DNA of 64,000 bases from an uncultured virus (IMG/VR IMGVR_UViG_3300025466_000001) (lineage: Duplodnaviria; Heunggongvirae; Uroviricota; Caudoviricetes). Where the stretch lies: the IMG/VR virus record IMGVR_UViG_3300025466_000001; one strand, written 5' to 3'. A program made the translations under genes and the position numbers. Shown in pieces: positions 15,683-64,000 of this stretch. Below the pieces are notes generated by a model, which saw nothing but the letters and a program-made list of their open reading frames with translations, made no database searches and was not told the origin of the DNA. The first letter of the stretch is position 1. The number at the start of each line of letters is the position of its first letter.

Positions 15683-18600
15683 ATGGACTTAGATAGACTG
15701 TCGCTTGACGACCTAAAGGCGCTTCGCAGCAACAACCTAGACGGTATGTCTCTTGAAGGGTTGAACTATCTAAAAACACAGCAAAAGGCTTCTGTTCCTG
15801 CAAGAGAAGAACCCAAAGAAGACACAGGCGCTACAGGCGCCTTTAAGTCTAGCCTAGAAAGTATCAAGGGCGAACTCGGAGCATTGGCTGGCAAAACTGG
15901 TTTAATGGACCAAGCCGAAGCTGAGAAATACTATAAAGAACAAAAAGAAAAAGCTGCTGCATTAGCGCCTACAGAAAAAAGCTGGACTGAATCTCCTTTC
16001 CAAAAGCTTAAAGAAACAGCTGCTGGGTCTGTTCCTTATATGGCTGCCCCTCTTATTGCCGGTGGTGCTGCTGCATTGGGTGGTGCTCCTGCTTTGGTTG
16101 GCGCAGGTGCTGCTGGTATTGCTTCAGGTTTACAGTTTACTGGTTCTAACCTTGGTCGTCAGATGGAGGAAGGCAAGTCTTTAGAAGAAGCTAGTTTAGG
16201 CAAAGCTGCTGCAGCCGCAATTCCACAAGCTGCATTAGACGTAGTAGGGTTTAAATACATTCCGGGTGTACAAAAGATTTTTTCTTCTATAGGCAGAGAG
16301 CTTACAGAACAAGAAGCTTTAAACATTATTAAGGCTGGTACGCTAAAGACAGCAGGACAGTATATTGCTGGCGGTGCAAAGATCGGTGGTATTGAAGGCG
16401 CTACAGAAGCAGGTCAACAGTTCTTCGAGCGTTTACAGGCTGGTTTAAATTTAAATGATGAACAAGCACGTAAAGAATACTTAGACAACTTTATTGGTGG
16501 CGCTGCATTAGGTGTAGTGGCTTCTCCATTTGGTGTTCATGGTACTCGTGCAGATGCACAAAAAGTTGTTCAAGAGGCGCAAGCAAAACGAGATGTAGAA
16601 GCTCAAAAAGTAGCGCAAGAACAAGAAGCACAACAAGAATTTCAAAAACAACAGGCTGAAACAGGACAGGTTACAGGTGAAGCTGTACCCGCCGCTGAAC
16701 AAGTATCTCCACTCCCTAATGCCCCAAGCACACTAACTGCAGCTGAGCGTTTACAGCAAGAAGAAGATGCGGCTAAACAACAGCAAGAGCAAACTGCTTC
16801 TGCTTTGCGTCAACATCAAGTACTAAAGAACGAAGTAGATACACTGCAAGAGCAAGTTGCTAAAGCCGCTGAGCAAGGCAACGTAGATGCTATCACCACA
16901 TTAAGCCCACGCTTGCAGCAAATGCAGGCTGCCTACAAGACAAGCCAAGAAGCCATTAAGAAGATTAGCCCAGTTGAGCAATCGCCTGACGTACAGATGG
17001 CTGAGCTTCGTGGCAAGCTAAAACAAAAGATTGGCCAGCTACAAAAAGCTGGTGGTGTTACAGGCGACTTTGAAAAGATTAACAAAGTAGCTACAGAGAT
17101 TAAAGGTATTCAGACAAAGATTGATGACTTGTCTAAAGCTGGCACGCAGTTTGAGTTGTTTGAACCAGCCAAGATGGAGGCAGAGGCCAATCAGGCTAAG
17201 CAGCAACAAGCCGCCCAACGTCAGCAAGAACAACAAGATTTGTTTGCACAACTACCTCAAAAAGAAGCCCCCGGCCCATTAGATAAATACCAAGAAGGTT
17301 TGCGTGAGCTAGAAGAAGCCCATGCAGCCGGTGCTGATGAGCGTGCAGTTAACGACATTGTTGAGAAGATTCGCCACGCACAGATTGAAAAAGGCTTAAA
17401 GAGCGCTGCCCCAGCCGAAGAAGCTAACGCTCGAGTAGAAAGAGTTAAGCGTGCTATTGCTGAAGAACAACGCAACTATGCTAATGCTACAACTGAAGAA
17501 GAAAAAGCTACAGCTATTGCTAGTATGGGCGCATTACAAAAGCGTTTGGCAGAAGCTCAAACAGATAAAGCTAAACCACAACCCGAACGTGAGCAAGCAA
17601 CTGCTAAGGCAGACCAAGCCACTGCCCATGATACTTTGCTAGATGCTGTTGATGATCTAAAAGCAGGTCGTTATTTAGCCGGTGCCGACCCAAGAACCGC
17701 ATCATCGTTACGTTCCGGTATTGAAGCTAAGGCTAGAGATGCTACGGCTGGCTATATTGAAGCAGCAACACGTGAAGTTAATGCAGTTCGTGCTGCCAAT
17801 AAACAATCAGAACTAAGCACAGACGAAGCGCTTAAACTTGCCTTTGATTTAAAAGATACGCTTGATAAAGTTGTTGCCAATAAAAATGTTGGTGTACTAA
17901 GGGTTGCCCCTAACCAAGAAGTTAGCTATCTAGAAAAACAAATTGATGGCATTAAAAACAAATATACACAAGGTGCTGCTAGAAACTTAACTAGAGTACA
18001 GCCTTTCTTTACATCACAAGAACGTGATGCAACGCAGATGCTCAAAGCAGAGAAAGCTAAGAAGAACCCTAACCTACAAAAGATTCGCCAGCTTGAAAAA
18101 GAAGTTGCGGCTGGTAAACGTGAAGATGAGCGTATTGCCGCTGAGAAAGAAAAAGCAGAACTTAAAGAACCTGAAGGCGTAAACCCAGACCAATATAGTT
18201 TGTTTGGCGAAAAACAATTAGAGCCTATCGCTGCTGTTCGTGCTACCCATAAGAACTTCATGCGTTTTGTGGATACTCAGGCAGCTAAGTTTAAAGAAGC
18301 TCAAGGTAAAGCGGAAGAAAAACTAGCGCAGATTAAAGAGAAAGCTGATGCAGCTTTTGAAAAGCAACGTGCTATTGAGGCACGTAGCCCAGTACTAGAC
18401 AAAGAGTTTATGAGTCAGGTGCAAGCGCAGCGTCAGTTTGTTTTCGATGTTATTAACGCTGACAAATTAGTTACAGAGCTTCGTGGTATGGCTGAACGTA
18501 TTTGGCAGGATAAAGCTCACCCAGAACGCTTAGCTCAAATTGACGCGCTACACGCAGAAGCTAACAAAATTGTAGAAGCTAATATCCAAACAGAGAAAGC

Positions 18601-21600
18601 TATCCTACAAAGCATGGAACGTAGACTCGCTAAGATGGAAGCCCCATCTAAAGCTGCCCTACAAAACAAAGCCTATGCCGATAAAGCTAGAGCTATCGTA
18701 GCGCAAATGGAAGGCGACCTAAAGAAATTAAGTGAGCGCCAAACTGCTGAGAAACGTAAAGCCGAGACATTAGCTGCTGAGCGTTTAGCCGCATTACCAA
18801 GTAAGCGCCTTAAGACTGTTGTTACTGAGCGTGCCAAGTTTGGCAGAGAAGCTCCGACTGTTGCTAGGGTTATTACTGAGAAGCCAGCTAAGACAGCCGC
18901 ACAAAAAGCGGAAGAAGGCAGAGCCAAAGCTCGTGAAGCTGCAGAAGAACAAGCATCCCTTAAACGTGCACAGAAAGAACGTGCTGGTACAAGTCTTACA
19001 CAAGATAAAGATATTAGAGACGTTGTTCAACGTCAAGCTATGCGTACAGCCGAAGTATTGGGCAATCGCCCAGCAAAACTGGCCCCTAAAGCTAAGCCAA
19101 GCGCAGCGGAAAAAGCTACCGCTAAAGCTAATGAAAAGACGGCTAAGCAGATTGCAGATGCAAGGCGTTCTGAAAAAGAATACGCTGGTGAGGCTAATGT
19201 AGGTTTTGAAGACTACATGGAAATATCCGAAGGTTTAAAACATGGCTTTAGTGCACGTGAAGAATCCGCTCATGGCGGTGAAGGTCTAAGCCACGCAGAA
19301 GTTCAGAAAGTTGTTGACGGTGTTAAGTTACCGGAAGGCTTGAAGCTTACTGTGATGGAGAAGTTGCCTGAGCCAATTAAAGCCTACATTCGTGAGCGTG
19401 GCTATAACCCTGATACTATTCGTGGTTTCGTTACTGCTAATGGCAAAGTTGTAGTTGTAGCCAATAACCACGCAGACCTTAAAGATGTTGAAAAGACCAT
19501 TGCCCACGAAGTTACAGGTCACTTAGGGGTTGAGGGTATTCTAGGCAAAGAAGGCATGGCTGCATTTACCGCTAAAGTAATTAAGCAAGAAGGCGGTGTA
19601 ATGGAGTTGGCACGCAAGTTAGGTGTTCAAGACGATGCCTATGGCGCTTACTTAGCTGCCTTACGTTCCGGCAAGACTAAAGAAGAAGCTCAAGCTGCAG
19701 CAGTATCAGAAATGATTGCGCACACAGCAGAAGCTCGCCCAACTAAAGAGTTTATTGGTAAGGCTAAAGAGTTTATTGAAGCCCTGATGGGTGCGTTGCG
19801 TGCAGGTTTACGCAAGATGGGTATTGATTTACGCATTAACACCAACGACGTTTACAAGCTATTGCGTGATGCTCGTGAAGACTTTAAGGTTTCTCCCGGC
19901 GCTAGCGTAGAGGCTAATGGTGAAGTTAAGTTCCGTAGCCAGCCTAAGTACAACAGTAAGTTTGCTGATTTGGGGGCTGACGTTTCTAAAGTTGTTGCTA
20001 AGAATCAAACCACTAAGGACAAGATTAAAGCAGCCGCTAGTGGCATGAAAGTACCTAGCGATATTATGAAGCCTACAGGTATATTGTCCGAGAAAAACCG
20101 CCTAGCTTTCCGTACACGTTACATTGACCGCTTTGCTCCTGTAGAGAAGGTAGCTAACAAATTAGCGGAGAAGTTTAAAGATTCGCTAGTTGGCACACAG
20201 TTAATGTACTACCTCCGTATGCACGACCAAAACCTTAACTGGACTGCTCAGATTGCTTCGGGTGGCCCTATTGATTTAGTGGAAAGAAAACGTGCTGATG
20301 GTAAGAAAGAAACCATCCTAGAATCCCAAGACGGCGCTAGTTTGTTAAAGGTTTCCCAAGCACTTAAGAAAGCTGACGTTGGTGATGCCGATGCTGCCAA
20401 TCAATTGTTTACATTCTACTTAGCGGCTAAACGTGCTCAGCGTGTTGGTTTGGATACATTGAACTTTGACAAATCAGTTACACAGCCAATGCTGGATAGA
20501 GTCGTAAACCGCATTAACTCTGACCCACAAACCAAAGCAGCTTTTGAAGAAGCCGCTAAAATCTACAACGATTACAACAAAGGTTTGGTTGACTTTGCCG
20601 TTAAGACAGGTCGCCTCTCTAAAGAAGTTGGCGCTAAGTTACTAGAAGCTAAAGACTATGTGCCGTTCTATCGTGTGCGCCCTGATGGTTCAGTGATGCT
20701 AGATATTGGCGGAGCTACAACAGTTAACATAGGTAATATTACAGATCAGCCTTACCTACATGAGTTAGTCGGCGGCGATACCGCTATCCTTGATGTCTTT
20801 ACTAGCTCTTTGCAAAACACACGCATGCTAACAGATATGGCATTGCGTAACCTAGCTACTCGTAACGTAGCGTTTAGTTTGAGAGAACTAGGCTTGTTAC
20901 AGAAGAAGAAAGGCAGAGATGGAAAAGAATTTGGCTCCGGTATCTATGAAGGCAAAGGTCCTGCTAACGATTCTACTATTCGCTTTATGTTGGATGGCAA
21001 AGATCACTATGCAGTGGTGGATACTGACAGTATTGGTATTCCCGCAGACTTACTTGTAAAAGGTATGGATGGCGTACAGGTTTCAGTTCCTAATCTAGTT
21101 AAGATGGCTGGTATCCCAGCACGTATGCTCCGCAGCTTTATTACAAGGAACCCAGCTTACGCTGTCCGTCAAATCTCTCGTGACTCTTTATCAAACGCAT
21201 TTACTACTGGCGCTGATTCGATTCCTATTATTGATAACATGAAGCAGTTAGGCTCTATGCTACGTGGGGTTAATGAGGGTGAGTTGTTATTGAAGAAGCG
21301 TGGTATTTTGGGCGGTCAAGTTATTGGTGGCGCTTCAGATTCTATGCAAAAAGCTATGCTGCAAGTTATAGACGGCAAACCCGGCTGGAGCAAAGCGATG
21401 GCTTATCTAGACCACGTAGCTATGATGGGCGATGCTTCTTCTCGTGTAACTTCTTACAACAGCTTTATCAAACAAGGTTTGTCCGATATGGAAGCTACCT
21501 TGGCCTCTTTGGAAGCTATGAACTTTAGTAAGCGTGGTACATCCCCAAGCTTCTACTTGCTCAATCAAATGGTGCCGTTCTTGAACGCACAGATTCAAGG

Positions 21601-22594
21601 TCTTGATGTTCTTTATAAAGCTTTTGCTGGCAAGATGCCGTTTAGCGACAAGCTAAAGATTAAAGAGAAGTTGCTCAAACGTGGCGCTATGATGGCTGGT
21701 ATGACAATGGCTTACACAGCGTTGATGTATGACGACGACTTGTACAAGAACGCTACCCCACAAGAAAGAATTGGTAATTGGTTTGTTAAGTTACCCGGTA
21801 TGGATGAGGCTGTTCGTGTCCCTATTCCATTTGAAATCGGCGGTATCTTTAAGATGCTTCCTGAGATGGTTTACTCTACCGCTTTCAAAGATAAGAAACT
21901 TGGTGACGCTGCTAAAGAAATTGCCGAGTATTCAGTTAATCAGTTTGTTCCATCTGTAATGCCAACGGTTGCTAAACCATTTATAGAATTGCCTGCTAAT
22001 TACTCATTCTTTACTGGCAAGCCAATAGAAGGCGCACGTTTACAGAAACTAGAACCCGGCATGCGTGCAAATGCTAACACCCCAGAAGTACTAAAAGCAC
22101 TTGGTGAAGCTACTAACATTTCCCCAGTTAAGATGGAGTATTTGCTACGTACATTCACAGGTTCGCTACCGCTGGCTATGTTGACTTTGGCTAATCCTGT
22201 AACTGCTGCTGGTGAAGCTCCTGAGGGTCGTGGTTTATTAAGTAGCACAACTCCTGTTGTTGGCGCTTTCTTCCAGCCTAAAGATGCTACCGGTCTAATT
22301 GAGAAAGCTTATGAGCAAATGGGTGACGTTCAAAAAGCTCAAGCTACTTATAGAGATTTGGTTGATAACGACAGAGAAAAAGAAGCCGATGCGTTCTTGG
22401 ATAAAGAAGCTGACTTGATTGGTATGGCACGATTTGCTGGACAGTTCAACAAAAAGATGGGAGAGTTGGCTAAGCAAGAACGTGAGATACGTTCCATGAC
22501 TGGCATTAGCGGAGCTGAGAAGCGCCAATTACTAGATGAAATACGTCAAACCCGTATCGAGATGTCTAAAGAGTTCCTTAGCGCACGCGAGTAA
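15683..22594 (+). CDS. Large polyvalent/ejection protein (2303 aa) with zincin-like HExxGH and LPD38-like C-terminus
   Basis: IAHEVTGH; PFLNAQIQG, RVPIPFEIG, ANYSFFTGKPIE motifs; long coiled coils. Confidence 0.7.
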   Translation: MDLDRLSLDDLKALRSNNLDGMSLEGLNYLKTQQKASVPAREEPKEDTGATGAFKSSLESIKGELGALAGKTGLMDQAEAEKYYKEQKEKAAALAPTEKSWTESPFQKLKETAAGSVPYMAAPLIAGGAAALGGAPALVGAGAAGIASGLQFTGSNLGRQMEEGKSLEEASLGKAAAAAIPQAALDVVGFKYIPGVQKIFSSIGRELTEQEALNIIKAGTLKTAGQYIAGGAKIGGIEGATEAGQQFFERLQAGLNLNDEQARKEYLDNFIGGAALGVVASPFGVHGTRADAQKVVQEAQAKRDVEAQKVAQEQEAQQEFQKQQAETGQVTGEAVPAAEQVSPLPNAPSTLTAAERLQQEEDAAKQQQEQTASALRQHQVLKNEVDTLQEQVAKAAEQGNVDAITTLSPRLQQMQAAYKTSQEAIKKISPVEQSPDVQMAELRGKLKQKIGQLQKAGGVTGDFEKINKVATEIKGIQTKIDDLSKAGTQFELFEPAKMEAEANQAKQQQAAQRQQEQQDLFAQLPQKEAPGPLDKYQEGLRELEEAHAAGADERAVNDIVEKIRHAQIEKGLKSAAPAEEANARVERVKRAIAEEQRNYANATTEEEKATAIASMGALQKRLAEAQTDKAKPQPEREQATAKADQATAHDTLLDAVDDLKAGRYLAGADPRTASSLRSGIEAKARDATAGYIEAATREVNAVRAANKQSELSTDEALKLAFDLKDTLDKVVANKNVGVLRVAPNQEVSYLEKQIDGIKNKYTQGAARNLTRVQPFFTSQERDATQMLKAEKAKKNPNLQKIRQLEKEVAAGKREDERIAAEKEKAELKEPEGVNPDQYSLFGEKQLEPIAAVRATHKNFMRFVDTQAAKFKEAQGKAEEKLAQIKEKADAAFEKQRAIEARSPVLDKEFMSQVQAQRQFVFDVINADKLVTELRGMAERIWQDKAHPERLAQIDALHAEANKIVEANIQTEKAILQSMERRLAKMEAPSKAALQNKAYADKARAIVAQMEGDLKKLSERQTAEKRKAETLAAERLAALPSKRLKTVVTERAKFGREAPTVARVITEKPAKTAAQKAEEGRAKAREAAEEQASLKRAQKERAGTSLTQDKDIRDVVQRQAMRTAEVLGNRPAKLAPKAKPSAAEKATAKANEKTAKQIADARRSEKEYAGEANVGFEDYMEISEGLKHGFSAREESAHGGEGLSHAEVQKVVDGVKLPEGLKLTVMEKLPEPIKAYIRERGYNPDTIRGFVTANGKVVVVANNHADLKDVEKTIAHEVTGHLGVEGILGKEGMAAFTAKVIKQEGGVMELARKLGVQDDAYGAYLAALRSGKTKEEAQAAAVSEMIAHTAEARPTKEFIGKAKEFIEALMGALRAGLRKMGIDLRINTNDVYKLLRDAREDFKVSPGASVEANGEVKFRSQPKYNSKFADLGADVSKVVAKNQTTKDKIKAAASGMKVPSDIMKPTGILSEKNRLAFRTRYIDRFAPVEKVANKLAEKFKDSLVGTQLMYYLRMHDQNLNWTAQIASGGPIDLVERKRADGKKETILESQDGASLLKVSQALKKADVGDADAANQLFTFYLAAKRAQRVGLDTLNFDKSVTQPMLDRVVNRINSDPQTKAAFEEAAKIYNDYNKGLVDFAVKTGRLSKEVGAKLLEAKDYVPFYRVRPDGSVMLDIGGATTVNIGNITDQPYLHELVGGDTAILDVFTSSLQNTRMLTDMALRNLATRNVAFSLRELGLLQKKKGRDGKEFGSGIYEGKGPANDSTIRFMLDGKDHYAVVDTDSIGIPADLLVKGMDGVQVSVPNLVKMAGIPARMLRSFITRNPAYAVRQISRDSLSNAFTTGADSIPIIDNMKQLGSMLRGVNEGELLLKKRGILGGQVIGGASDSMQKAMLQVIDGKPGWSKAMAYLDHVAMMGDASSRVTSYNSFIKQGLSDMEATLASLEAMNFSKRGTSPSFYLLNQMVPFLNAQIQGLDVLYKAFAGKMPFSDKLKIKEKLLKRGAMMAGMTMAYTALMYDDDLYKNATPQERIGNWFVKLPGMDEAVRVPIPFEIGGIFKMLPEMVYSTAFKDKKLGDAAKEIAEYSVNQFVPSVMPTVAKPFIELPANYSFFTGKPIEGARLQKLEPGMRANANTPEVLKALGEATNISPVKMEYLLRTFTGSLPLAMLTLANPVTAAGEAPEGRGLLSSTTPVVGAFFQPKDATGLIEKAYEQMGDVQKAQATYRDLVDNDREKEADAFLDKEADLIGMARFAGQFNKKMGELAKQEREIRSMTGISGAEKRQLLDEIRQTRIEMSKEFLSARE

Positions 22595-26135: not shown

Positions 26136-27026
26136 TTACTCGTCGTCTGTTTCCCACTCGCCAATAACTTCAGCTAGTTTGCCAGCTTTCTTAGCTGGAA
26201 CAGCGTTTGGTTTAGCGGCTGGTTTACGGACTTCGGGTTCATCAACTTCGTCGCTAGCCGCTTCTACTTTAGCGGTTGGCTTCTTACCTTCGAGAGCTAA
26301 TGGCTCGTCTTTCTTCTTAGCAACACTCATGGTGATGGCTTGCTTAGCTTCGGCAGACTGACCTTTTTTAGCGCAGATTGCATACTCTTCATCGGACAAC
26401 CAACGCATAGGTTGGAAGAACAACTTGGGTACTGCGGCTTTAGTATCGAAACGCATACGAGTAACAAGGGTCTCAGGGTTAATGCTTTGAGCCGCCAAGT
26501 AACGGGCATACGCTTGGAGTGGGCGCTTGTCACCATCCTCTTTACCGAAGATAGAAGTAGCCGCTAGGGTTAATTGCATAACGTCGCCTTCCATATCGTT
26601 AGCCAAAACAACTGCTAAGCGCTGGCTAAAGCGGCAAGCACGTGAATCACCAAGACCTGAGCCTTTGGCATTTTGTGGGCAGTTAGCGCATGATGGTGCT
26701 TGAGGTGTATCAATGCTTGCATCAGGTGTATCGCCGTCAGCAGACCAGCAAGTAGGTGCTGAGTTAGCGCCTTCCTCGTAAGTGCCAGCATAGTATGTAC
26801 GGCTAATCTTTGGGGCAGCTTGAACAATAACTACGTCAAGGTGGCGGTCATCAATAGCCGCAACTTCTTTACCACCAGCGATCAAGCGGAACACACCGCC
26901 CTTAGTTGAGATACGTTTTTGTGAAACTCCTACACCACCAGCCAAACTCTTGGCTAATGAAGATAGTTCTGCGCTCTTAGCAAACGCTGGTAGTTTCGAT
27001 GGGTTAAATGTTGTGAGTTCAGACAT
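26136..27026 (-). CDS. Putative ssDNA-binding/annealing protein
   Basis: CWS..G, CxxC, RAC motifs; acidic tail; replication module. Confidence 0.55.
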   Translation of the reverse strand: MSELTTFNPSKLPAFAKSAELSSLAKSLAGGVGVSQKRISTKGGVFRLIAGGKEVAAIDDRHLDVVIVQAAPKISRTYYAGTYEEGANSAPTCWSADGDTPDASIDTPQAPSCANCPQNAKGSGLGDSRACRFSQRLAVVLANDMEGDVMQLTLAATSIFGKEDGDKRPLQAYARYLAAQSINPETLVTRMRFDTKAAVPKLFFQPMRWLSDEEYAICAKKGQSAEAKQAITMSVAKKKDEPLALEGKKPTAKVEAASDEVDEPEVRKPAAKPNAVPAKKAGKLAEVIGEWETDDE

Positions 27027-27267
27027 TTGTTACTTCTCCTTTTTTAAGAAATTCTAAGAATACTTTTGCTGTTTCTGCGATTGCTATTGGCGCTGTGTCA
27101 GGATTGCTTGCGTTAACTGCCGCACCCAAAGCTTGTACTCGCATTTGGATTTCAATCTGCACGTTGTTCTGCGCATCTTGATAGGCTTGTTGTTGTGCTT
27201 GTTTTAAAGCCGCATTTAAAACTGCTTGCGCTTCTTGTTCGGGTGTTGCTGGCTGAGCTTCGCTCAT
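27019..27267 (-). CDS. Hypothetical protein
   Basis: AGGAG RBS; 82-aa ORF. Confidence 0.65.
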   Translation of the reverse strand: MSEAQPATPEQEAQAVLNAALKQAQQQAYQDAQNNVQIEIQMRVQALGAAVNASNPDTAPIAIAETAKVFLEFLKKGEVTNV

Positions 27268-29948: not shown

Positions 29949-30188
29949 TTATTTTTTGTTGTCTGACATATTAGCTTTGGGAGATCGCAGTCTTAAGTTG
30001 CCGCTTGTTGATTTCCCACCTGACTTTAGGGGCTTCACGTGGTCTATGTGTTTGCCCTTGCGGTCGATACCTTCTTTGTCATACTTACGTCTTGCACGCT
30101 GGCGCTCGAGTTGGTCTTCGGTTTCACCAGTTGCTTTCTGTAACTTGTATGCGTGTTTGTAATCACGCTTGCCGTTTTTCTGTGTCAT
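29949..30188 (-). CDS. Small HNH protein
   Basis: HIDHVKPLKSGG...NLRLRSPKAN. Confidence 0.8.
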   Translation of the reverse strand: MTQKNGKRDYKHAYKLQKATGETEDQLERQRARRKYDKEGIDRKGKHIDHVKPLKSGGKSTSGNLRLRSPKANMSDNKK

Positions 30189-45326: not shown

Positions 45327-45569
45327 CTAAACACTCGCCGATTCCCATTCCTTTCTATGTATCTCTGCGAGTCTTATCGTGGTCATAGCGACCCATTCGC
45401 CACCTAGTTGATCCCCAGCCCTTAGCTTCTTAACGGCATTGATAGCGGGCTTCATATGGGCATAGGTTTGGACTTGATCTTTAGCGTTGCGTTTGAACTC
45501 CATGATGAAGCCGTCTTTTTTGTATGCAACTACGAAGCCTACGGGATTGCGTTTAGATTGGTTTAGCAT
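45327..45569 (-). CDS. Early hypothetical protein (start MLNQSK)
   Basis: AAGGAG RBS. Confidence 0.65.
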   Translation of the reverse strand: MLNQSKRNPVGFVVAYKKDGFIMEFKRNAKDQVQTYAHMKPAINAVKKLRAGDQLGGEWVAMTTIRLAEIHRKEWESASV

Positions 45570-45637
45570 GGTATTACTCCTTAGTGTGTTGTGAATTGAC
45601 AGAATACTTAACTGCGAAGAAGCCTCGCCCTTCCGCA

Positions 45638-46057
45638 TTACTTGGCGATCTTTGTCAAAAATGCTTTGCGTTGTGCAACTGTGAGAGCTTTGAATTGTGT
45701 AAGTAACTTAGCAACTGGGTCAGGCTTCTTGGCTGCCTTTGGTTTCGTGGAGGTTTTCTCCACTTGGCTTGGCATATAGTATTTGAGCATAGCCCTTGCA
45801 CATTCACTCGCATCTGTACCACCATTCTTTTTAGACTCAAAGCCTAGCGAGCCTGTGTAAGAACCTTTGGTAATCTCAATCGTGGCTACCTTCTTCTTGA
45901 TACTGATGAGCCTTGCTATGTTGCTCCGTACTTCTAGCTGTGCCTCGACCTTCATAGCGTTAAATACAGGTGCAAACTTCTGCATGGCATCACCGAGATT
46001 AAAACCTGATTCAATGTGTTGCTCTACTGCATTGAGATAGTTAGTAACTTGTTTCAT
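45638..46057 (-). CDS. First early gene, basic protein
   Basis: AAGGAG RBS; extended -10 TGGTATAAT at 46128-46120. Confidence 0.7.
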   Translation of the reverse strand: MKQVTNYLNAVEQHIESGFNLGDAMQKFAPVFNAMKVEAQLEVRSNIARLISIKKKVATIEITKGSYTGSLGFESKKNGGTDASECARAMLKYYMPSQVEKTSTKPKAAKKPDPVAKLLTQFKALTVAQRKAFLTKIAK

Positions 46058-46349
46058 GGTATTGCTCCTTCGTTTGTGTAGTTAATTAAGTATGTGCCGT
46101 TACTACCAAGCACAACTCTATTATACCATATGGCTACTATCCGTAGTAGCTTTGAGCCATTCCTTTGACCCCACCCATCCCCCATCCCCCCAAGTTTCGA
46201 CCATGCCCCGCTCGGCACTAGATCATTGTTTCGCAGGCGCAAACCAAAAAATGTCAAAATTTTGTAAAAAAATCCAAGGGTCTATGTCAAATCTTAGACA
46301 AAAACATTATAAAAATTCTTAGCAAATTTCGGACAAGACCTCCCAGAAA

Positions 46350-46800
46350 AAACGCTGTAACCTTATGATTACAAAAAATAAAGCCGTGCAAACATATGAC
46401 ATGAGGTAAAAGTTATGTAAAAAGGATAAACCTACATAAGATTGTTATAAAAAAGTTTCCCAGTAGTGCCTATAGGTATCAAAACAACAAAACAATTCCA
46501 ACCTATAGGTATAAAAAAGTTTCCCGAACGGGAAGAATTGATAAAAAAGTGTGCAAAAGTAAAAAAATATTCCCGAACGGGAAAGTTTGTAAGAAAAAGT
46601 AATGACTCATAAATGAGTCCATATAGGGGTTAAAGCTTTATTTATGAGTCAACCAAAGAGCGCATAAACTCAACGACGTATACAAAATGTCAACAAATCT
46701 GCGCATATCCCCCAAACATGTCTACAAAACTGCAATTACTATACATACCAAAAACTGTCTAGTAACAATGTTGCACTGCACCATAAAACAAATTAAAATG
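46350..46800. repeat. Non-coding array of paired operator-like palindromes
   Basis: CCTATAGGTAT x2, TTCCCGAACGGGAA x2, TGACTCATAAAT x2, GT(A/C)TACAAAA x2, others. Confidence 0.7.
46768..46799 (+). promoter_or_regulatory. Sigma70 promoter with PhaR-like operator over the -35
   Basis: TTGCAC-17-TAAAAT; ATGTTGCACTGCACCAT palindrome. Confidence 0.6.
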
Positions 46801-46847
46801 GACCCAAAGGCTCCATAAGGGAACCGCACTAACCTAAAGGAAATAAA

Positions 46848-46982
46848 ATGAACGAACTATTCAAAGAGTGGGACAAAGCGTATCAACAAGTACAGAACGT
46901 ACTAGAGGCGGTAAAGCAAGGGAATGAGTTTTGGTTAAACCACTACATCTCTTCTGTTAAAGAACTTTTCAAAACCAAATAA
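46848..46982 (+). CDS. 44-aa amphipathic helical protein, possibly phasin-like (not in the ORF track)
   Basis: AAAGGA RBS; MNELFKEWDKAYQQVQNVLEAVKQGNEFWLNHYISSVKELFKTK. Confidence 0.65.
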   Translation: MNELFKEWDKAYQQVQNVLEAVKQGNEFWLNHYISSVKELFKTK

Positions 46983-47014
46983 AAAAAAACCCCCGGGCGT
47001 TTTAAGTCCGGGGG
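46981..47014 (-). terminator. Intrinsic terminator (U-tract on - strand)
   Basis: CCCCCGG..CCGGGGG stem followed by T9 on -. Confidence 0.8.
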
Positions 47015-47066
47015 CACAACTCACGTAACCGATGGCACAACGAAAGGAGAAGTAAAACCACCGGTA
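46982..47066 (-). ncRNA. Candidate ~85-nt anti-RBS small RNA
   Basis: Promoter TTTACA-17-TACAAT, 5' hairpin with anti-SD loop, terminator. Confidence 0.65.
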
Positions 47067-47072
47067 AGAAGA

Positions 47073-47150
47073 ATTGTAAAGTTTTGGCTGCGGATTGTAA
47101 AGTTAAGCCCCGATAATTGTAAAAAAAGAAAATGTGTAATAAAATACACA
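47073..47150. promoter_or_regulatory. Divergent overlapping promoters built from 3x ATTGTAAA
   Basis: - strand TTTACA-17/18-TACAAT twice; + strand TTGTAA-17-TAAAAT; TGTGTA-N6-TACACA over the -10. Confidence 0.6.
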
Positions 47151-47188
47151 AAATCGCGGATTCCCCCGCGCAACAGAAAGGGTTTTAT

Positions 47189-47812
47189 TTGATCTTAGAT
47201 CATTTAGTTTCAGCTGCAGCCGCTGACTTCGCTCCGGAAACACTACCGGACGGGGATTTGTTCGTCCCTGTAAAAGACCTATCTGTAAAAGAAACCATAG
47301 ATGCGCAGGTAAACACTGCCGACTGGCTCAAATCTATTACCGAAGATGACGACGAGGTACTAGACCGCGCCCAAGAACAACGTGTAGGCGAAGCATTCGG
47401 TGCGCTAATCACGCAAAGCCCTGATACAAAAGAAAGATTCCTAGAGCTTGAGCTCCCAGAAGAAGTAAAGTCTGCCGTTTCCATGGTGACTGCCTATCAA
47501 TGGAAGTTTGTAGAGCAAGCACAAGAGCTACGAAGCATGAGCGTAGCCAAGATTGTTAAAGAAACCGACCACCCAGATGCAAGAATACGCTTAAAGGCGT
47601 TGGAATTGTTGGGAAAAGTCACAGAAGTTGCCCTGTTTACGGACAGAGTTGAAGTTAAGAAGACTGAACTAAGTGATGAAGAGTTGGAAAAACAAATTAA
47701 AAAGAAACTTGAGAAGTACATGGGCGTGGTTGAGGTAACTGAGATTAAAGAAGAAGACATTGAGGACGTGGGAATAGTGAAAGTCATCAAAGCTGAGCCC
47801 CGCGACGAATGA
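47189..47812 (+). CDS. terS: Putative terminase small subunit (TTG start)
   Basis: Directly upstream of terL; RLKALELLGK motif. Confidence 0.65.
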   Translation: MILDHLVSAAAADFAPETLPDGDLFVPVKDLSVKETIDAQVNTADWLKSITEDDDEVLDRAQEQRVGEAFGALITQSPDTKERFLELELPEEVKSAVSMVTAYQWKFVEQAQELRSMSVAKIVKETDHPDARIRLKALELLGKVTEVALFTDRVEVKKTELSDEELEKQIKKKLEKYMGVVEVTEIKEEDIEDVGIVKVIKAEPRDE

Positions 47813-49329
47813 AAACAGAAAGTCTAAGCCCAGAAGAAGCAATGGCTGCCAGAATGGCACTAAAAGATATGACGACTGTGGAAAAAGCGGCTTTCCTAGA
47901 AGAATTAAACGAAAAAGAACGCCGTGCCCAGCTAAAAAAAGCACAAGACGACCCAATTGAGTTTGCCAAGTACGTGTATCCGGGTTTCAAAGTGGGGCCC
48001 CACCACCGCAAGCTAGCTAAAATCTTCGAGGACGTCATTGCGGGGAAGAAAAAGCGCGTAATCATAAACATTGCACCACGTATGGGCAAATCAGAATTTT
48101 CGTCCTACCTCTTTCCGGCATACTTCCTAGGTAAATACCCTGACAAAAAGATTATTATGGCGACCCACACTGCTGGCTTGTCAGAAGACTTTGGTCGTAG
48201 GGTACGAAACCTAATTGATGGAGAAGATTACCATGAAGTATTTCCCGGAACCGTTGTTGCTGATGATCAAAAAGCCGCTGGTAAGTGGAGTACTGGTGCC
48301 GGCGGCCAGTATTATGCTGTGGGTGTCGGGGGTGCTCTTGCCGGACGAGGCGCTGACCTTTTTGTTATTGACGACCCTCACTCTGAGCAAGATATAAAAG
48401 CAAACAGCCGAGCCACGTTTGATAATGCGTGGTCTTGGTTTCAGACTGGCCCGTTGCAGCGTTTGATGCCGGGTGGTGCGATTATTGTCATTATGACAAG
48501 GTGGTCGCTTGTTGATTTGACTGGCCGGTTGGTGAACTTCACCATACAAAATCCCGAAGCAGAACCATGGGAGGTAGTAGAGCTGCCAGCCATCATGCCA
48601 AACGGGAAAAGTCTGTGGCCTGAGCAGTGGCCTCTAGAACAGTTAGAAGCTAAAAGACTTCAGATGGACCCACGGTACTGGAACGCCCAGTACATGCAGA
48701 ACCCCACCGGGGATACAAGCGCCCTGATAAAACGAAGCGACTGGAAAATCTGGGAACACGAAGACCCACCGACAGTCGAGTACGTCATCCAGTCTTGGGA
48801 TACGGCGTTTGAAACAAAAACCACATCTGACTATTCCGCATGCACAACATGGGGGGTTTGGTACAACGAAGAAGATAACAATTCACCCAATCTAATTTTG
48901 TTAGATGCGTTCAAAGACCGGATGGCGTTCCCAGAATTAAAGGCTGTTGCACTGAAGCATTATCAAGAATGGAAACCAGATGCGTGTATCATTGAGAAAA
49001 AAGCGTCGGGTGGCCCGTTAATACAAGAGCTGCGCAGAATGGGGATTCCGATTCAAGAGTTTACACCTAGCCGTGGCAACGATAAAATAGCTAGACTTAA
49101 TGCGGTTTCTGACTTATTTGCGTCCGGCCGTGTTTGGATACCGGATAGGCGTTGGGCTAAAGACGTTGTGGAAGAAGTAGCAGCATTCCCTGTAGGCGAG
49201 CACGATGACTATGTGGATACGACAACGCAAGCATTACTGCGCTATAGACAGGGCGGATTTGTTAATTTAAATACGGACGAGCAAGACGACTTGACGTACA
49301 AGTATAGAAGAAGAGCAGCATACTACTAA
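47809..49329 (+). CDS. terL: Terminase large subunit
   Basis: APRMGKS, IDDP, MTRW, WDTA, HDDYVD. Confidence 0.95.
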   Translation: MKTESLSPEEAMAARMALKDMTTVEKAAFLEELNEKERRAQLKKAQDDPIEFAKYVYPGFKVGPHHRKLAKIFEDVIAGKKKRVIINIAPRMGKSEFSSYLFPAYFLGKYPDKKIIMATHTAGLSEDFGRRVRNLIDGEDYHEVFPGTVVADDQKAAGKWSTGAGGQYYAVGVGGALAGRGADLFVIDDPHSEQDIKANSRATFDNAWSWFQTGPLQRLMPGGAIIVIMTRWSLVDLTGRLVNFTIQNPEAEPWEVVELPAIMPNGKSLWPEQWPLEQLEAKRLQMDPRYWNAQYMQNPTGDTSALIKRSDWKIWEHEDPPTVEYVIQSWDTAFETKTTSDYSACTTWGVWYNEEDNNSPNLILLDAFKDRMAFPELKAVALKHYQEWKPDACIIEKKASGGPLIQELRRMGIPIQEFTPSRGNDKIARLNAVSDLFASGRVWIPDRRWAKDVVEEVAAFPVGEHDDYVDTTTQALLRYRQGGFVNLNTDEQDDLTYKYRRRAAYY

Positions 49330-63226: not shown

Positions 63227-64000
63227 ATGAGTTTAGTCCTACAGGATAGAGTAAGAGAAACCACAGCCGTAACGGGTACAGGTTCGGCTACGCTATTGGG
63301 CGCTGTTACTGGATACCAGCCGTTTTCAGTTGTTGGTAACACAAACATTTGCTACTACACTATTGCAGATCAATCTGGCCCAAACTGGGAAGTAGGTATT
63401 GGTACATACTCAACTACTGGTCCTACCCTTGCTCGTACAACTGTTTTAGCTTCTTCTAATTCTGGCGCATTAGTTAACTTTACTACTGGTACTAAAGATG
63501 TATTTTTAACTTACCCATCTGAAAAAGCTGTTTATTATGATGCAAACAATTATGTAGGTATTGGTACTGGCGCGCCAGTTGCCCCTCTTACTGTATATAA
63601 CGCAACATCTGCAATCTTATCTGTTGATGGTGATGCTGGCGCAAACATGAGGGTAACAAGATACGGGAATGACGCAAATAATTCATTTGTATCAATCAGA
63701 AAAGCAAGAGGAACATTTGCATCTCCTACTGCTGTTGCATCTGGAGATGTTCTTGGAACTTTACAATTTGTAGGATATGGCGGTACAAACTACAGAGGAT
63801 TGGCTTATGTTTCTTCTACCGTAGGTACTTATACTTCTGATACAGATATTTCTGCATTTCTTGCTTTTTCAACTACGCCAACTGGAACAACAACAGCTGT
63901 AGAGCGTATGCGTATTGATACAACTGGTTTTGTTGGAATTAATACAACAACACCATCTGACCAATTAACAATTCAATCGCCAACTACAGCAGTTAGACCA
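63227..64000 (+). CDS. Tail fibre protein, N-terminal part (3'-truncated)
   Basis: MSLVLQDRVRETT..WEVGIGTY anchor; ERMRID repeat; open to the window end. Confidence 0.8.
   Translation, partial: MSLVLQDRVRETTAVTGTGSATLLGAVTGYQPFSVVGNTNICYYTIADQSGPNWEVGIGTYSTTGPTLARTTVLASSNSGALVNFTTGTKDVFLTYPSEKAVYYDANNYVGIGTGAPVAPLTVYNATSAILSVDGDAGANMRVTRYGNDANNSFVSIRKARGTFASPTAVASGDVLGTLQFVGYGGTNYRGLAYVSSTVGTYTSDTDISAFLAFSTTPTGTTTAVERMRIDTTGFVGINTTTPSDQLTIQSPTTAVRP

What the first reader, a model, noticed from the sequence alone, without database searches (positions are those of the whole stretch)
46350..46800. Non-coding array of different operator-like palindromes, mostly in pairs (possible transcription-factor decoy or sensor)
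Seen in about 450 bp of A-rich DNA with no ORF: TGTAA-N8-TTACA (46356-46373); TTATGTA-N13-TACATAA (46413-46439); CCTATAGGTAT at 46469 and 46502 (33 bp apart); TTCCCGAACGGGAA at 46521 and 46570; GACTCAT-AA-ATGAGTC (46604-46619) with an inverted degenerate copy at 46635-46651; GTATACAAAA/GTCTACAAAA at 46678 and 46720 (42 bp apart); a PhaR-like box at 46768. The motifs are unrelated to each other and separated by A-tracts. Some loosely resemble known families (GntR-type TGTATACA, CsoR/FrmR-type ATAC..GTAT, TetR-type spacing). Inference: a cassette that titrates several host metabolic repressors as the genome amplifies, or reads host state near the genome end.
Basis: partly seen in the sequence, partly recalled or inferred. 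Interest (0 to 1): 0.8.

Follow-up and report, generated by a model that had tools for sequence, protein, structure and literature searches.

The report
Host toxin-antitoxin operators on phage DNA
A gene-free stretch of a freshwater phage genome carries copies of the DNA sites that its probable host, Polynucleobacter, uses to control several toxin-antitoxin modules and a storage-granule gene, so the phage may be soaking up or listening to those host regulators.

Summary
Raw palindrome density is only modestly above chance, but the pairing is not, and comparison with other genomes settles the matter. The window is a ~64 kb lytic-type phage. The array sits in the gap between the leftward early operon and the terminase/late operon.

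In 40 non-redundant relatives the same short modules recur. They are gained, lost, moved and inverted, and some relatives have none.

Five modules match operator regions in bacterial genomes, mostly in the genus of named Polynucleobacter strains, and three keep the native spacing:
- TTCCCGnnCGGGAA pair (49 bp): operator of canonical hipBA.
- GACTCAT-nn-ATGAGTC pair (31 bp): a second HTH+HipA operon in Polynucleobacter.
- CCTATAGGTAT pair (33 bp): an HTH_3+Fic operon.
- TTATGTA-N13-TACATAA: a toxin-antitoxin island.
- The "PhaR-like" box with its promoter: host phasin promoters.

A sixth module just outside the range, GTGTA-N6-TACAC, equals the published Shewanella HipB operator.

The phage encodes no HipB, HipA, Fic or XRE protein, and the copies lack the host promoters, except the phasin one. 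So this is an array of orphan host operators.

My best reading is a DNA sponge or scaffold for antitoxin/toxin-antitoxin complexes (~0.45). A host-state sensor is the main rival. No protein binding has been shown.

The parts
46356..46373 (.). Module M5: imperfect palindrome TGTAACC-TTAT-GATTACA, single copy. Binder unknown.
   Evidence: Sequence. Shared with relative L004. The pattern with up to 2 mismatches was absent from 5 candidate host genomes. Only weak genus matches: 90% over 29 nt at E 1.1e-3 and 85% over 34 nt at E 3.6e-3. The two contexts were uninformative.
46413..46439 (.). Module M16: TTATGTA-N13-TACATAA. Counterpart lies in host toxin-antitoxin islands.
   Evidence: 7-nt arms. 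Window 46409-46451 matches G480 (91% over 34 nt, E 1.6e-6) and G436 (84% over 43 nt, E 5.7e-6). There it is the core of a longer palindrome beside an HTH_3 53-aa gene and a Gp49-like + dnstrm_HI1420 antidote pair, or an AAA_16 ATPase + antidote gene.
46466..46514 (.). Module M2: two sites (A)TACCTATAGGTAT, 33 bp apart. Operator type of an HTH_3 + Fic operon.
   Evidence: Host G452 (L413) has three sites at a 33-bp period directly before an HTH_3 152-aa + Fic 196-aa operon. The same pair lies right after hipA in a freshwater betaproteobacterial MAG, L384. Present in 15 of 40 phage gaps, with spacing 33 in 8 of 8 pairs.
46521..46583 (.). Module M3: two perfect TTCCCGAACGGGAA palindromes, 49 bp centre to centre. 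Canonical hipBA (HipB) operator pair.
   Evidence: In the 80 loci with flanks, 116 of 125 site spacings are 49-50. An HTH_3 protein is adjacent in 71 of 80 loci and a HipA kinase in 64 of 80 (Pfam on 5+5 proteins). Genus examples are G471 (L419) and G421. Contig depth over 46502-46609 is 5-25 times that of the flanks.
46603..46651 (.). Module M4: GACTCATAAATGAGTC plus a second half-site ..TTTATGAGTC, 31 bp apart. Operator pair of a second HTH + HipA operon of Polynucleobacter.
   Evidence: I17. The pair pattern gave 13 loci in 185,579 species genomes. Four lie in 3 named Polynucleobacter strains; others are beta-proteobacterial MAGs, Methylopumilus and Paraburkholderia. It sits upstream of HTH_31 118 aa + HipA_C 435 aa. 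It matches 13 of 121 genus genomes at E<=1e-3. Host spacing is 31.
46648..46729 (.). Paired direct repeats GTCAAC..GCGCATA (46648-46666 / 46689-46707, 41 bp apart) and GTMTACAAAA (46678 / 46720, 42 bp apart). Binder unknown.
   Evidence: (D8). Related TTGAC-containing pairs occur in L004 and L013. No significant host match: the best was 87% over 30 nt at E 6e-3 and lay inside a coding region.
46769..46799 (+). BOX palindrome TGTTGCACTGCACCA, containing a -35 TTGCAC, then 17 nt, then -10 TAAAAT. A copy of the host phasin promoter with its presumed PhaR operator; it drives the 44-aa ORF.
   Evidence: 94% identity over 32 nt to G416 (L402), 50 nt upstream of a Phasin_2 gene. Similar boxes precede Phasin_2 genes in L417 and L418. 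The box is conserved upstream of the small ORF in relatives.
46848..46982 (+). Small ORF of 44 aa downstream of the phasin-like promoter. Outside the stated range.
   Evidence: The frame and RBS are kept in relatives whose DNA differs. No Pfam or PHROG hit.
47073..47151 (.). Further modules outside the stated range: ATTGTAAAGTT x3 at a 21-23 bp period (M1), and GTGTAATAAAATACAC at 47136-47151 (M9, the published Shewanella HipB operator type GTGTA-N6-TACAC).
   Evidence: In relatives M1 and M9 lie inside the array and in the other orientation. M9 is in 11 of 40 gaps. The operator motif is in PMC4150777 (passage). The host site L421 overlaps the promoter of an HTH_3 gene.

Best explanation
SHOWN. 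The 450-bp stretch is a mosaic array of orphan host operators. It holds short cassettes copied from, or convergent on, promoter-operator regions of bacteria in the genus that includes named Polynucleobacter strains. Three cassettes are pairs that keep the native site spacing: canonical hipBA (49 bp), a second HTH-HipA operon (31 bp) and an HTH_3-Fic operon (33 bp). One is a palindrome from a toxin-antitoxin island. One is the phasin promoter with its palindromic box. The phage encodes none of the cognate proteins, and apart from the phasin copy the cassettes carry no promoter.

INFERRED (mechanism). After injection, and increasingly as the genome replicates, the sites bind the host's XRE-type antitoxins, either alone or as toxin-antitoxin complexes. 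For HipBA, adjacent operators at the native spacing are the scaffold on which HipB-bound HipA dimerises. On published evidence that dimerisation restrains the kinase. Extra scaffolds on many phage copies would keep HipA (and by analogy Fic) sequestered. They might also derepress the chromosomal operons so that labile antitoxin is replenished. Either effect would blunt toxin activation and abortive infection.

The cassettes turn over quickly because host strains differ in which toxin-antitoxin modules they carry. The phasin-promoter copy is a separate part: a host-regulated promoter for the 44-aa gene.
For: - Native identity of the TTCCCGnnCGGGAA pair (M3). Of 125 site spacings, 116 are 49-50. 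HTH_3 is adjacent in 71 of 80 loci and HipA in 64 of 80.
- GACTCAT pair (M4). 13 loci, with HTH_31+HipA_C operons in Polynucleobacter.
- CCTATAGGTAT pair (M2). HTH_3+Fic in G452, and next to hipBA in L384.
- TTATGTA-N13-TACATAA (M16) lies in toxin-antitoxin islands.
- GTGTA-N6-TACAC (M9) equals the published HipB operator (PMC4150777 passage) and a host HTH_3 promoter site.
- Specificity. The array matches 16 of 121 genus genomes at E<=1e-3. A coding control gives 1 of 121, and the other non-coding part of the same gap gives 0 of 121.
- Spacing is identical in phage and host: 33, 49-50 and 31 bp.
- Orphan status. No HTH_3, HipA or Fic hit in 86 window ORFs. No hit to HipB or HipA profiles in 566 ORFs of six genomes of the family.
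- No sigma-70-like promoter was found in 46350-46800.
- Independence of position and strand. Modules are inverted and moved between close relatives, such as M2 and M4 between the window and L004 (TerL 94% identical). The array ranges from absent to about 800 bp.
- It behaves as accessory, fast-turnover DNA. Only 19 of 40 non-redundant gaps hold one or more of these modules. Contigs of lake metagenomes break at module borders, and the hipB cassette has 5-25 times the flanking depth.
- Single host genomes carry two of the systems: G421 has M4+M3 and G452 has M4+M2.
- Literature. HipB2HipA2 binds operators, and Lon degrades HipB (PMC8262856 passages). The hipA7 change G22S is thought to raise HipA activity by disturbing HipA dimerisation within HipA/HipB/operator complexes (PMC7029023 passage).
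Against: - No binding, titration or phenotype has been measured. The mechanism is inference.
- The host is inferred largely from the same motif matches, plus G+C (44.6% against 42-47% in the loci from named Polynucleobacter strains) and a freshwater origin. TerL relatives binned in MAGs come from four unrelated phyla and give no host.
- Anti-phage activity of HipBA or HTH-Fic modules is only proposed in the paper I read (PMC8262856). I found no demonstration.
- Titrating a repressor or antitoxin could equally free the toxin or be neutral.
- Several modules in the range (M5, the 46648-46729 repeats) and M1 have no host counterpart.
- The single-site M4 count in 401 order-level genomes was 3, against 1 for the reversed control, which is not significant by itself.
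- In unrelated viral contigs the hipB-type pair often sits just upstream of an RBS and ATG. That fits regulation of phage genes rather than a sponge.
- The phasin-promoter part is clearly a promoter, not a decoy.
Confidence: 0.45

Rival explanations
1. Host-state sensor. The same host proteins (antitoxins, PhaR) bind the array in order to regulate the phage's own divergent early and late promoters. Phage transcription then depends on whether the host's toxin-antitoxin modules are quiescent and on its PHB status.
For: The array lies between the early promoter block (46250-46310, plus an extended -10 at 46120-46128) and the + strand promoter at 46771-46799. The BOX part is a near copy of a host phasin promoter. 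In unrelated viral contigs the hipB-type pair sits 10-30 nt before an RBS and ATG of varied genes. Phages that use a host repressor are known: GIL01 appears in the listing, and its use of LexA is recalled.
Against: Apart from BOX, the modules do not overlap any promoter-like site. Their distance to the early promoters varies from 0 to about 800 bp, and their order and orientation change between close relatives. Fixed operator-promoter geometry is therefore absent. Relatives without any array keep the same promoters (L014, L020).
Confidence: 0.25
2. Neutral recombination debris. The gap is a recombination hot spot that picks up fragments of host promoter regions, for example during illegitimate exchange with toxin-antitoxin islands. 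The fragments have no function in the phage.
For: High turnover, with presence and absence polymorphism (19 of 40 gaps). Contigs break at module borders. Modules are flanked by A-runs that could promote exchange. Some modules are degenerate, such as the second M4 site.
Against: Only the operator pairs are kept, with exact native spacing and perfect palindromes, while the adjacent host promoters and genes are never kept. The hipB cassette is the most abundant segment of the region in lake metagenomes. Orphan pairs with the same 49-50 spacing recur in unrelated viral contigs: 23 of 52 non-family loci have no long ORF across the pair.
Confidence: 0.12
3. Operators of phage-encoded regulators. Small early proteins of the phage bind the pairs, and the likeness to host sites reflects shared ancestry of XRE-type regulators.
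For: Many small early ORFs have no known function. Two small ORFs (27019-27267 and 29949-30188) and one 490-aa ORF (14184-15656) share the phyletic pattern of module M2 among six genomes.
Against: No HTH domain was found in 86 window ORFs. No HipB-like hit in 566 ORFs of six genomes. One of the two small co-occurring ORFs has only a weak HNH hit and the other has none above the noise. Six genomes are too few for that correlation, and G004 and G005 are close kin.
Confidence: 0.07
4. A structural DNA element for packaging, replication or stepwise injection: terminase recognition sites, origin iterons, or an injection-stop region made of repeats and bent A-tract DNA.
For: It lies just upstream of the small and large terminase genes. 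It is A-tract rich. The M1 repeats have a two-turn period. The T5 injection-stop region (recalled) is a repeat- and palindrome-rich non-coding stretch.
Against: The array is dispensable: relatives with 88-89% identical TerL have none. The modules differ between phages with near-identical terminase. The motifs are host operator sequences. No read-level ends could be obtained.
Confidence: 0.06
5. A tandem set of weak intrinsic terminators or RNA hairpins on the minus strand.
For: The scan lists three minus-strand hairpin+T sites at 46619-46604, 46583-46570 and 46534-46521. It found 5 in 45500-47800 against 2.4 +/- 1.6 in shuffles.
Against: The stems are 5-6 bp with 3 G-C pairs. The modules occur in both orientations in relatives. 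Direct-repeat modules cannot form hairpins. The same sequences are double-strand operator sites in bacteria.
Confidence: 0.03

Closest known systems
hipBA promoter-operator arrays. E. coli O1-O4, TATCC-N8-GGATA, is recalled. Shewanella GTGTA-N6-TACAC x4 is from PMC4150777 (passage).
   Same: Palindromic HipB sites in tandem at a fixed period. The window's TTCCCGAACGGGAA pair has the sequence and 49-bp spacing of native arrays next to hipBA in at least 64 of 80 bacterial loci. The window's GTGTAATAAAATACAC fits the Shewanella operator.
   Different: There is no hipB or hipA gene and no promoter between the sites. Operators of several different systems are strung together on a phage.
Pseudo-ToxI of phage PhiTE, a non-coding RNA mimic of a type III antitoxin (PMC3475682; start of the abstract seen).
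   Same: A non-coding, repeat-based phage element derived from or resembling part of a host toxin-antitoxin locus. It is used, or proposed here to be used, to neutralise that locus.
   Different: PhiTE makes an RNA that binds the toxin directly. Here the element is double-stranded DNA that would bind the antitoxin or the toxin-antitoxin complex, for several type II systems at once. Function here is untested.
Phage promoters controlled by host repressors. GIL01 appears in the listing; its use of LexA, and that of CTXphi, are recalled.
   Same: Host transcription-factor sites embedded in a phage control region. The BOX/phasin-promoter copy fits this kind.
   Different: Those sites overlap phage promoters and belong to one global regulator. 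Most modules here overlap no promoter and belong to strain-variable toxin-antitoxin modules.
Protein counter-measures against toxin-antitoxin defence: T4 Dmd antitoxin mimic, T7 Gp4.5 Lon inhibitor (both recalled), and a phage antitoxin mimic against DarTG (title in the listing).
   Same: The proposed aim is the same: keep the toxin silent during infection.
   Different: Those are proteins. Here no gene product is involved.
T5 injection-stop region (recalled; no paper read).
   Same: A non-coding stretch of assorted repeats and palindromes close to early promoters.
   Different: No link to host operators is known for T5. The array here is dispensable and variable.

Membership tests
HipB operator array (hipBA promoter region) | Palindromic site identical to sites found beside hipBA operons | tested here: met
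   TTCCCG-WW-CGGGAA pairs occur in at least 121 bacterial loci. HTH_3 is adjacent in 71 of 80 and HipA in 64 of 80. A genus example is L419.
HipB operator array (hipBA promoter region) | Two or more sites in tandem at the native period | tested here: met
   Window spacing is 49 bp. In bacteria 116 of 125 spacings are 49-50. Phage relatives show 49-50.
HipB operator array (hipBA promoter region) | Sites flank or overlap the hipBA promoter and precede hipB-hipA | tested here: not met
   No promoter-like site in 46350-46800. No HipB or HipA in 86 window ORFs or in 566 ORFs of six family genomes. The phage copy is an orphan.
HipB operator array (hipBA promoter region) | Bound by HipB or the HipB-HipA complex | not testable with these tools
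   Needs a gel shift or ChIP with host proteins.
Type II toxin-antitoxin locus | Encodes a toxin and an antitoxin | tested here: not met
   The region has no conserved ORF. No toxin-antitoxin domain was found anywhere in the window.
PhaR-regulated phasin promoter | Sequence likeness to promoters upstream of phasin genes in the host group | tested here: met
   94% over 32 nt to L402, before a Phasin_2 gene. Boxes also precede Phasin_2 genes in L417 and L418.
PhaR-regulated phasin promoter | Bound by PhaR and derepressed by PHB granules | not testable with these tools
   That phasin promoters are PhaR-controlled in Burkholderiaceae is recalled. No PhaR search was run.
Intrinsic terminators | G+C-rich stem followed by a U-run, in a fixed orientation relative to transcription | tested here: not met
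   Weak stems of 5-6 bp. The orientation flips among relatives.
Packaging (pac/cos) or origin repeats | Conserved together with the terminase or initiator and indispensable | tested here: not met
   Relatives with 88-89% identical TerL lack the array. Physical ends and the origin were not mapped.
   Where native contexts were found, the adjacent regulators are HTH_3/HTH_31 (XRE-type). No curated operator library was available.

The most novel reading that the evidence does not exclude
Phages carry exchangeable, gene-free 'operator sponges'. These are arrays of orphan operator pairs copied from several host type II toxin-antitoxin operons (two HipBA kinds, HTH-Fic and others). On the replicating phage DNA they sequester antitoxins or toxin-antitoxin complexes and so disarm kinase- and Fic-based abortive infection. 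This would be a DNA-level anti-defence mechanism whose cassette content tracks the strain-variable toxin-antitoxin repertoire of the host. Orphan hipB-type pairs in unrelated viral contigs suggest it is widespread.
Probability: 0.4. Interest if true: 0.9.

Novelty: new variant of a known kind. Interest (0 to 1): 0.8.

Why it matters
If the reading holds, it adds a third way for phages to deal with toxin-antitoxin defence. Protein mimics and RNA mimics are known. This would be bare DNA sites, which need no expression and grow in number as the genome replicates.

It would be indirect evidence that HipA-kinase and Fic modules act against phages in nature. In the literature I read this is so far only proposed.

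It also gives a practical handle. Operator cassettes in phage non-coding DNA point to the host: here Polynucleobacter, an abundant freshwater bacterium for which my one search listing showed no cultured phage. They may also point to the defence modules that matter in the field.

The finding shows that 'empty' intergenic DNA in metagenomic phages can be read by matching it to bacterial promoter regions.

The phasin-promoter copy suggests that expression of the 44-aa gene is tied to the host's carbon-storage state.

Tried and rejected
- blastn of 46000-47200 against 50,697 phage records: no match.
- Rfam, whole window: no family. tRNA scan: none.
- The window's own assembly is not held. The nearest record, G001, is a 27.7-kb fragment without the region.
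- Earlier findings: nothing by place or by sequence.
- Sequencing runs: 24 freshwater runs hold the stretch, but no RNA holder is listed. All were served as contigs, so no molecule ends or strand data could be read.
- TerL in bacterial genomes: 4 MAG contigs from four unrelated phyla, of no use for the host.
- Phage gene versus module co-occurrence in six genomes: three gene clusters share M2's pattern, but the sample is too small and confounded by kinship.
- Looking for a common gene next to the hipB-type pair in unrelated viral contigs found none. An HTH-like + metallophosphoesterase protein lies near the pair in 8 of 30 loci, but these belong to a few related lineages and it has no homologue in the window. 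I dropped it.
- M5 pattern in 5 candidate host genomes: none.
- Single-site M4 in 401 order-level genomes: 3 against 1 for the control, not significant alone.
- The terminator reading and the sigma-70 promoter reading of the modules were rejected.
- Virion-RNA-polymerase hairpin promoters (N4-like) were considered because of the 2303-aa protein. Pfam gave only LPD38, and the modules differ from each other.
- Schumacher 2015 (PMC7502270) is not held. Its model is cited only through passages of PMC7029023 and PMC6581861.
- No paper on phage-borne antitoxin-operator decoys appeared in the listings of two full-text searches. Only titles and abstract starts were read, so this is not proof of absence.
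- My BOX regular expression found nothing and was too strict. BOX conservation rests on reading.
Full report
**1. Setting.**
The window is most of a phage genome. The large terminase is at 47809-49329, followed by portal and capsid genes on the + strand. A DNA polymerase, helicase, primase-helicase and many small ORFs lie on the minus strand. Pfam found no phage RNA polymerase, integrase or repressor in 86 ORFs.

The nearest cultured phages share only 46-51% TerL identity: Pelagibacter phages HTVC027P/023P and the Synechococcus/Planktothrix phages MinM2 and Pag-Yong1. IMG/VR holds 384 stretches that encode TerL relatives, among them complete records of 64-67 kb.

The finding lies in a 1,074-bp gap (46058-47131). 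On one side is the first minus-strand gene (ATG at 46057, reading leftward). On the other is the presumed small terminase.

**2. The observation.**
Each paired motif occurs only here in the 64 kb window.

Against 500 dinucleotide shuffles, palindromes are only mildly enriched: 4 against 1.37 +/- 1.18, with 23 of 500 shuffles reaching 4. Short-range direct repeats are clearly enriched: 15 against 0.72, with 2 of 500 reaching that. On the sequence alone the case would therefore be weak.

**3. Relatives.**
I oriented 84 stretches (the window and 83 loci) and collapsed them to 40 non-redundant versions of the gap. All share a backbone:
- a strong minus-strand terminator (window 46990-47014 plus a T-run);
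- a small + strand ORF with a promoter whose -35 sits in the palindrome TGTTGCA..TGCAACA;
- a conserved TTGACA promoter block;
- a G-rich element;
- an extended -10 promoter.

Between the palindrome and the promoter block lies a variable insert. The distance from the terminator to the extended -10 box ranges from 200 to 1,002 bp. Some genotypes have no insert at all (L014/L017, L020, L085).

The insert is built from a limited vocabulary of short modules, mostly 14-18-bp palindromes in pairs. These are shuffled, and their orientation and position change even between close kin. M2 and M4 are inverted in L004 (TerL 94% identical) relative to the window. The ATTGTAAAGTT repeats lie inside the array in L045 and L105, but to the right of the terminator and inverted in the window.

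This independence of strand and position argues against terminators, transcripts or fixed promoter geometry. It points to double-strand protein-binding sites.

Contigs of four lake metagenomes break at module borders and carry different neighbours. The TTCCCGAACGGGAA cassette has 5-25 times the depth of its flanks. The cassettes are therefore shared by many co-occurring genotypes.

**4. What the modules are.**

*M3 (TTCCCGnnCGGGAA pair).* A scan of viral contigs for the pair found more than 120 stretches, nearly all with the same 49-50 bp period, many in unrelated viruses. In the 80 loci with flanks there are 2-5 sites per locus. Of 125 spacings, 116 are 49 or 50. The neighbouring genes are a ~80-aa HTH_3 protein (71 of 80 loci) and a ~420-aa HipA kinase (64 of 80) (Pfam on 5+5 proteins). 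This module is thus the operator array of canonical hipBA.

*M2 (CCTATAGGTAT pair).* The strict pattern gave six bacterial loci:
- One lies inside a 487-aa ORF and looks like chance.
- Three cyanobacterial loci and one Bacillus locus have the pair between divergent HTH_3 genes, next to an SMC-like ATPase or an HSDR_N protein.
- One is a freshwater betaproteobacterial MAG contig, L384. There a hipB-hipA operon with M3-type sites is followed at once by the phage-type M2 pair and the start of another gene.

*M4 (GACTCAT pair).* The pair pattern gave 13 loci. Four are from three named Polynucleobacter strains, and most of the rest are other Burkholderiales or Methylopumilus. In Polynucleobacter the pair precedes an HTH_31 118-aa + HipA_C 435-aa operon.

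**5. Genus-level test.**
I searched 121 genomes of the genus around one of those Polynucleobacter genomes with window 46330-46800. Sixteen genomes matched at E<=1e-3 per genome. A coding stretch of equal length gave 1 of 121. The other non-coding part of the same gap (46985-47200) gave 0 of 121, with one match at E 0.0025.

The matches fall on modules:
- M4 in 13 genomes.
- M16 (TTATGTA-N13-TACATAA) in G480 and G436.
- M3 in G421, and in G471 at E 1.2e-3.
- M2 in G452.
- BOX plus its promoter in G416 (94% over 32 nt). There are also 17-23-nt matches in many genomes, individually weak, at recurring chromosomal positions.

Contexts:
- M2 in G452: three sites at a 33-bp period before an HTH_3 152-aa + Fic 196-aa operon, whose first protein has the same N-terminus as the truncated gene in L384.
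- M3 in G471: precedes HipB + HipA.
- M16: lies in islands with an HTH_3 antitoxin-like gene, a Gp49-like toxin and 'addiction module antidote' genes.
- BOX: precedes Phasin_2 genes in three genomes.

The one match of the right-hand control, M9 (GTGTAATAAAATACAC), corresponds to a palindrome over the promoter of an HTH_3 gene. It fits GTGTA(N)6TACAC, the operator repeated four times upstream of Shewanella hipAB (PMC4150777, passage).

Pair spacing is the same in phage and host for all three paired modules: 33, 49-50 and 31 bp.

**6. Orphan status.**
No HTH_3, HipA or Fic domain appears in 86 window ORFs. Profiles built from 63 HipB and 56 HipA sequences hit none of 566 ORFs in six genomes of the family. 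They also hit none of 1,206 ORFs that comprise the flanks of 30 other viral loci carrying the pair plus the window's own ORFs.

The phage copies retain the sites and the spacer length but not the host promoter that lies between or beside the native sites. BOX is the exception: its -35, spacer and -10 are all kept.

**7. Mechanism.**
What is shown is identity, not function. For function I lean on what is published for HipBA:
- HipB2HipA2 binds the operators, and HipB is degraded by Lon (PMC8262856 passages; PMC3376134 passages).
- The HipA N-terminal subdomain mediates dimerisation during DNA binding and harbours high-persister mutations (PMC6581861 passage).
- G22S is thought to raise HipA activity by disturbing dimerisation within HipA/HipB/operator complexes (PMC7029023 passage).

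Operator pairs at the native spacing are therefore the very scaffold that keeps HipA quiet. A phage that supplies such pairs on every genome copy could hold the complexes inert, or could derepress the chromosomal operon so that antitoxin is replenished.

Several features fit an anti-defence accessory element best: promoters are dropped, spacing is kept, geometry relative to phage promoters is free, the array is dispensable, and cassette content turns over like the host's flexible toxin-antitoxin islands. I put this at about 0.45.

The main rival (0.25) is that the same proteins regulate phage transcription. That is clearly the natural reading for the phasin-promoter copy. It is also suggested by unrelated viral contigs in which the hipB-type pair abuts a gene start. 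Debris, phage-encoded binders, packaging/origin/injection roles and terminators are less likely, for the reasons given under the rivals.

**8. Caveats.**
- The host assignment rests mainly on the motif matches themselves, plus G+C and habitat.
- Anti-phage activity of HipBA or HTH-Fic is only hypothesised in the paper I read.
- M5, the 46648-46729 repeats and the ATTGTAAAGTT repeats remain unexplained.
- The position of the physical genome ends is unknown.
- Supplements were not consulted for any paper.

**9. Comparison and novelty.**
The elements are members of known operator types by sequence and spacing. They fail the membership features 'adjacent to the cognate genes' and 'overlapping the promoter'. 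They are orphan copies.

The closest functional analogy is the pseudo-ToxI RNA of phage PhiTE. The closest regulatory analogy is phages that use host repressors. The listings of two full-text searches showed no paper on phage-borne arrays of antitoxin operators.

I rate it a new variant of known kinds (host-factor sites on phages; mimicry of toxin-antitoxin components). If the sponge function were proven, it would be a new class of DNA-level counter-defence.

Noticed in passing
window 46980-47123, minus strand: Candidate small RNA. Three TTTACAAT repeats make two sigma-70-like promoters (10 of 12 matches each, minus strand). A ~90-nt stretch follows that folds into a hairpin presenting CUUCUCCUUUCG (anti-Shine-Dalgarno-like) in its loop, then a strong terminator with U9 (MFE -31.1 kcal/mol, z -2.96). 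The loop region (47036-47054) is 74% complementary over 19 nt to the RBS region of the first early gene (46060-46078). The anti-SD stretch and the terminator are conserved in relatives.
   Followed up: partly
window 46170-46192: A conserved G-run element on the minus strand (GGGGGGATGGGGGATGGGTGGGG, quadruplex-like) lies between the TTGACA promoter block and the extended -10 promoter. Relatives L043-L050 have a CCCCCCTAGTGGGG hairpin there instead. Function unknown; a cos/pac role was not tested.
   Followed up: no
window 46848-46982 (+): A 44-aa ORF with a good RBS is kept as an open frame in relatives whose DNA has diverged. It is driven by the phasin-like promoter. No family hit.
   Followed up: partly
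L045 3922-4194: One relative carries tRNA-Pro(tgg), tRNA-His(gtg) and tRNA-Leu(tag) inserted between the small ORF and the terminator.
   Followed up: yes
L143, L163, L172, L181, L186/L199 (printed with flanks and ORFs) and L237, L238, L252 (short stretches read by eye): Orphan hipB-type operator pairs with a 49-50 bp period occur in viral contigs unrelated to this phage, over a wide G+C range and often just upstream of an RBS and ATG. L252 has the pair followed by TTGACTCATGCATGAGTCAA (M4-like), next to what looks by eye like a tRNA 3' end. No scan was run on it. No HipA or HipB was found in the flanks searched.
   Followed up: partly
L384 700-2621: In a freshwater betaproteobacterial MAG, the hipBA operon and the M2-type operator pair of an HTH_3(+Fic) operon are immediate neighbours. 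Two of the systems whose operators the phage carries thus sit side by side in one island.
   Followed up: partly
window 15683-22594 (+): A 2,303-aa protein with an LPD38 'large polyvalent protein' domain near its C-terminus. It is possibly a virion-delivered multi-domain protein.
   Followed up: no
L142, L150, L190, L193, L195, L205, L207, L210: In another phage lineage, a 320-411-aa protein with an N-terminal HTH-like segment fused to a calcineurin-like phosphoesterase lies within 3 kb of a hipB-type pair.
   Followed up: partly
window 63733-63767: TGTTGCA (+) at 63733 and ATTGTAAAG (minus strand) at 63759 recur close together far from the gap. This may be a second small control region.
   Followed up: no
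window 46137-46152: The palindrome CTACTACGGATAGTAG overlaps the -35 position of the extended -10 early promoter (TGGTATAAT, 46128-46120 on the minus strand). Variants are conserved in relatives. It is a likely operator for early-gene control.
   Followed up: no
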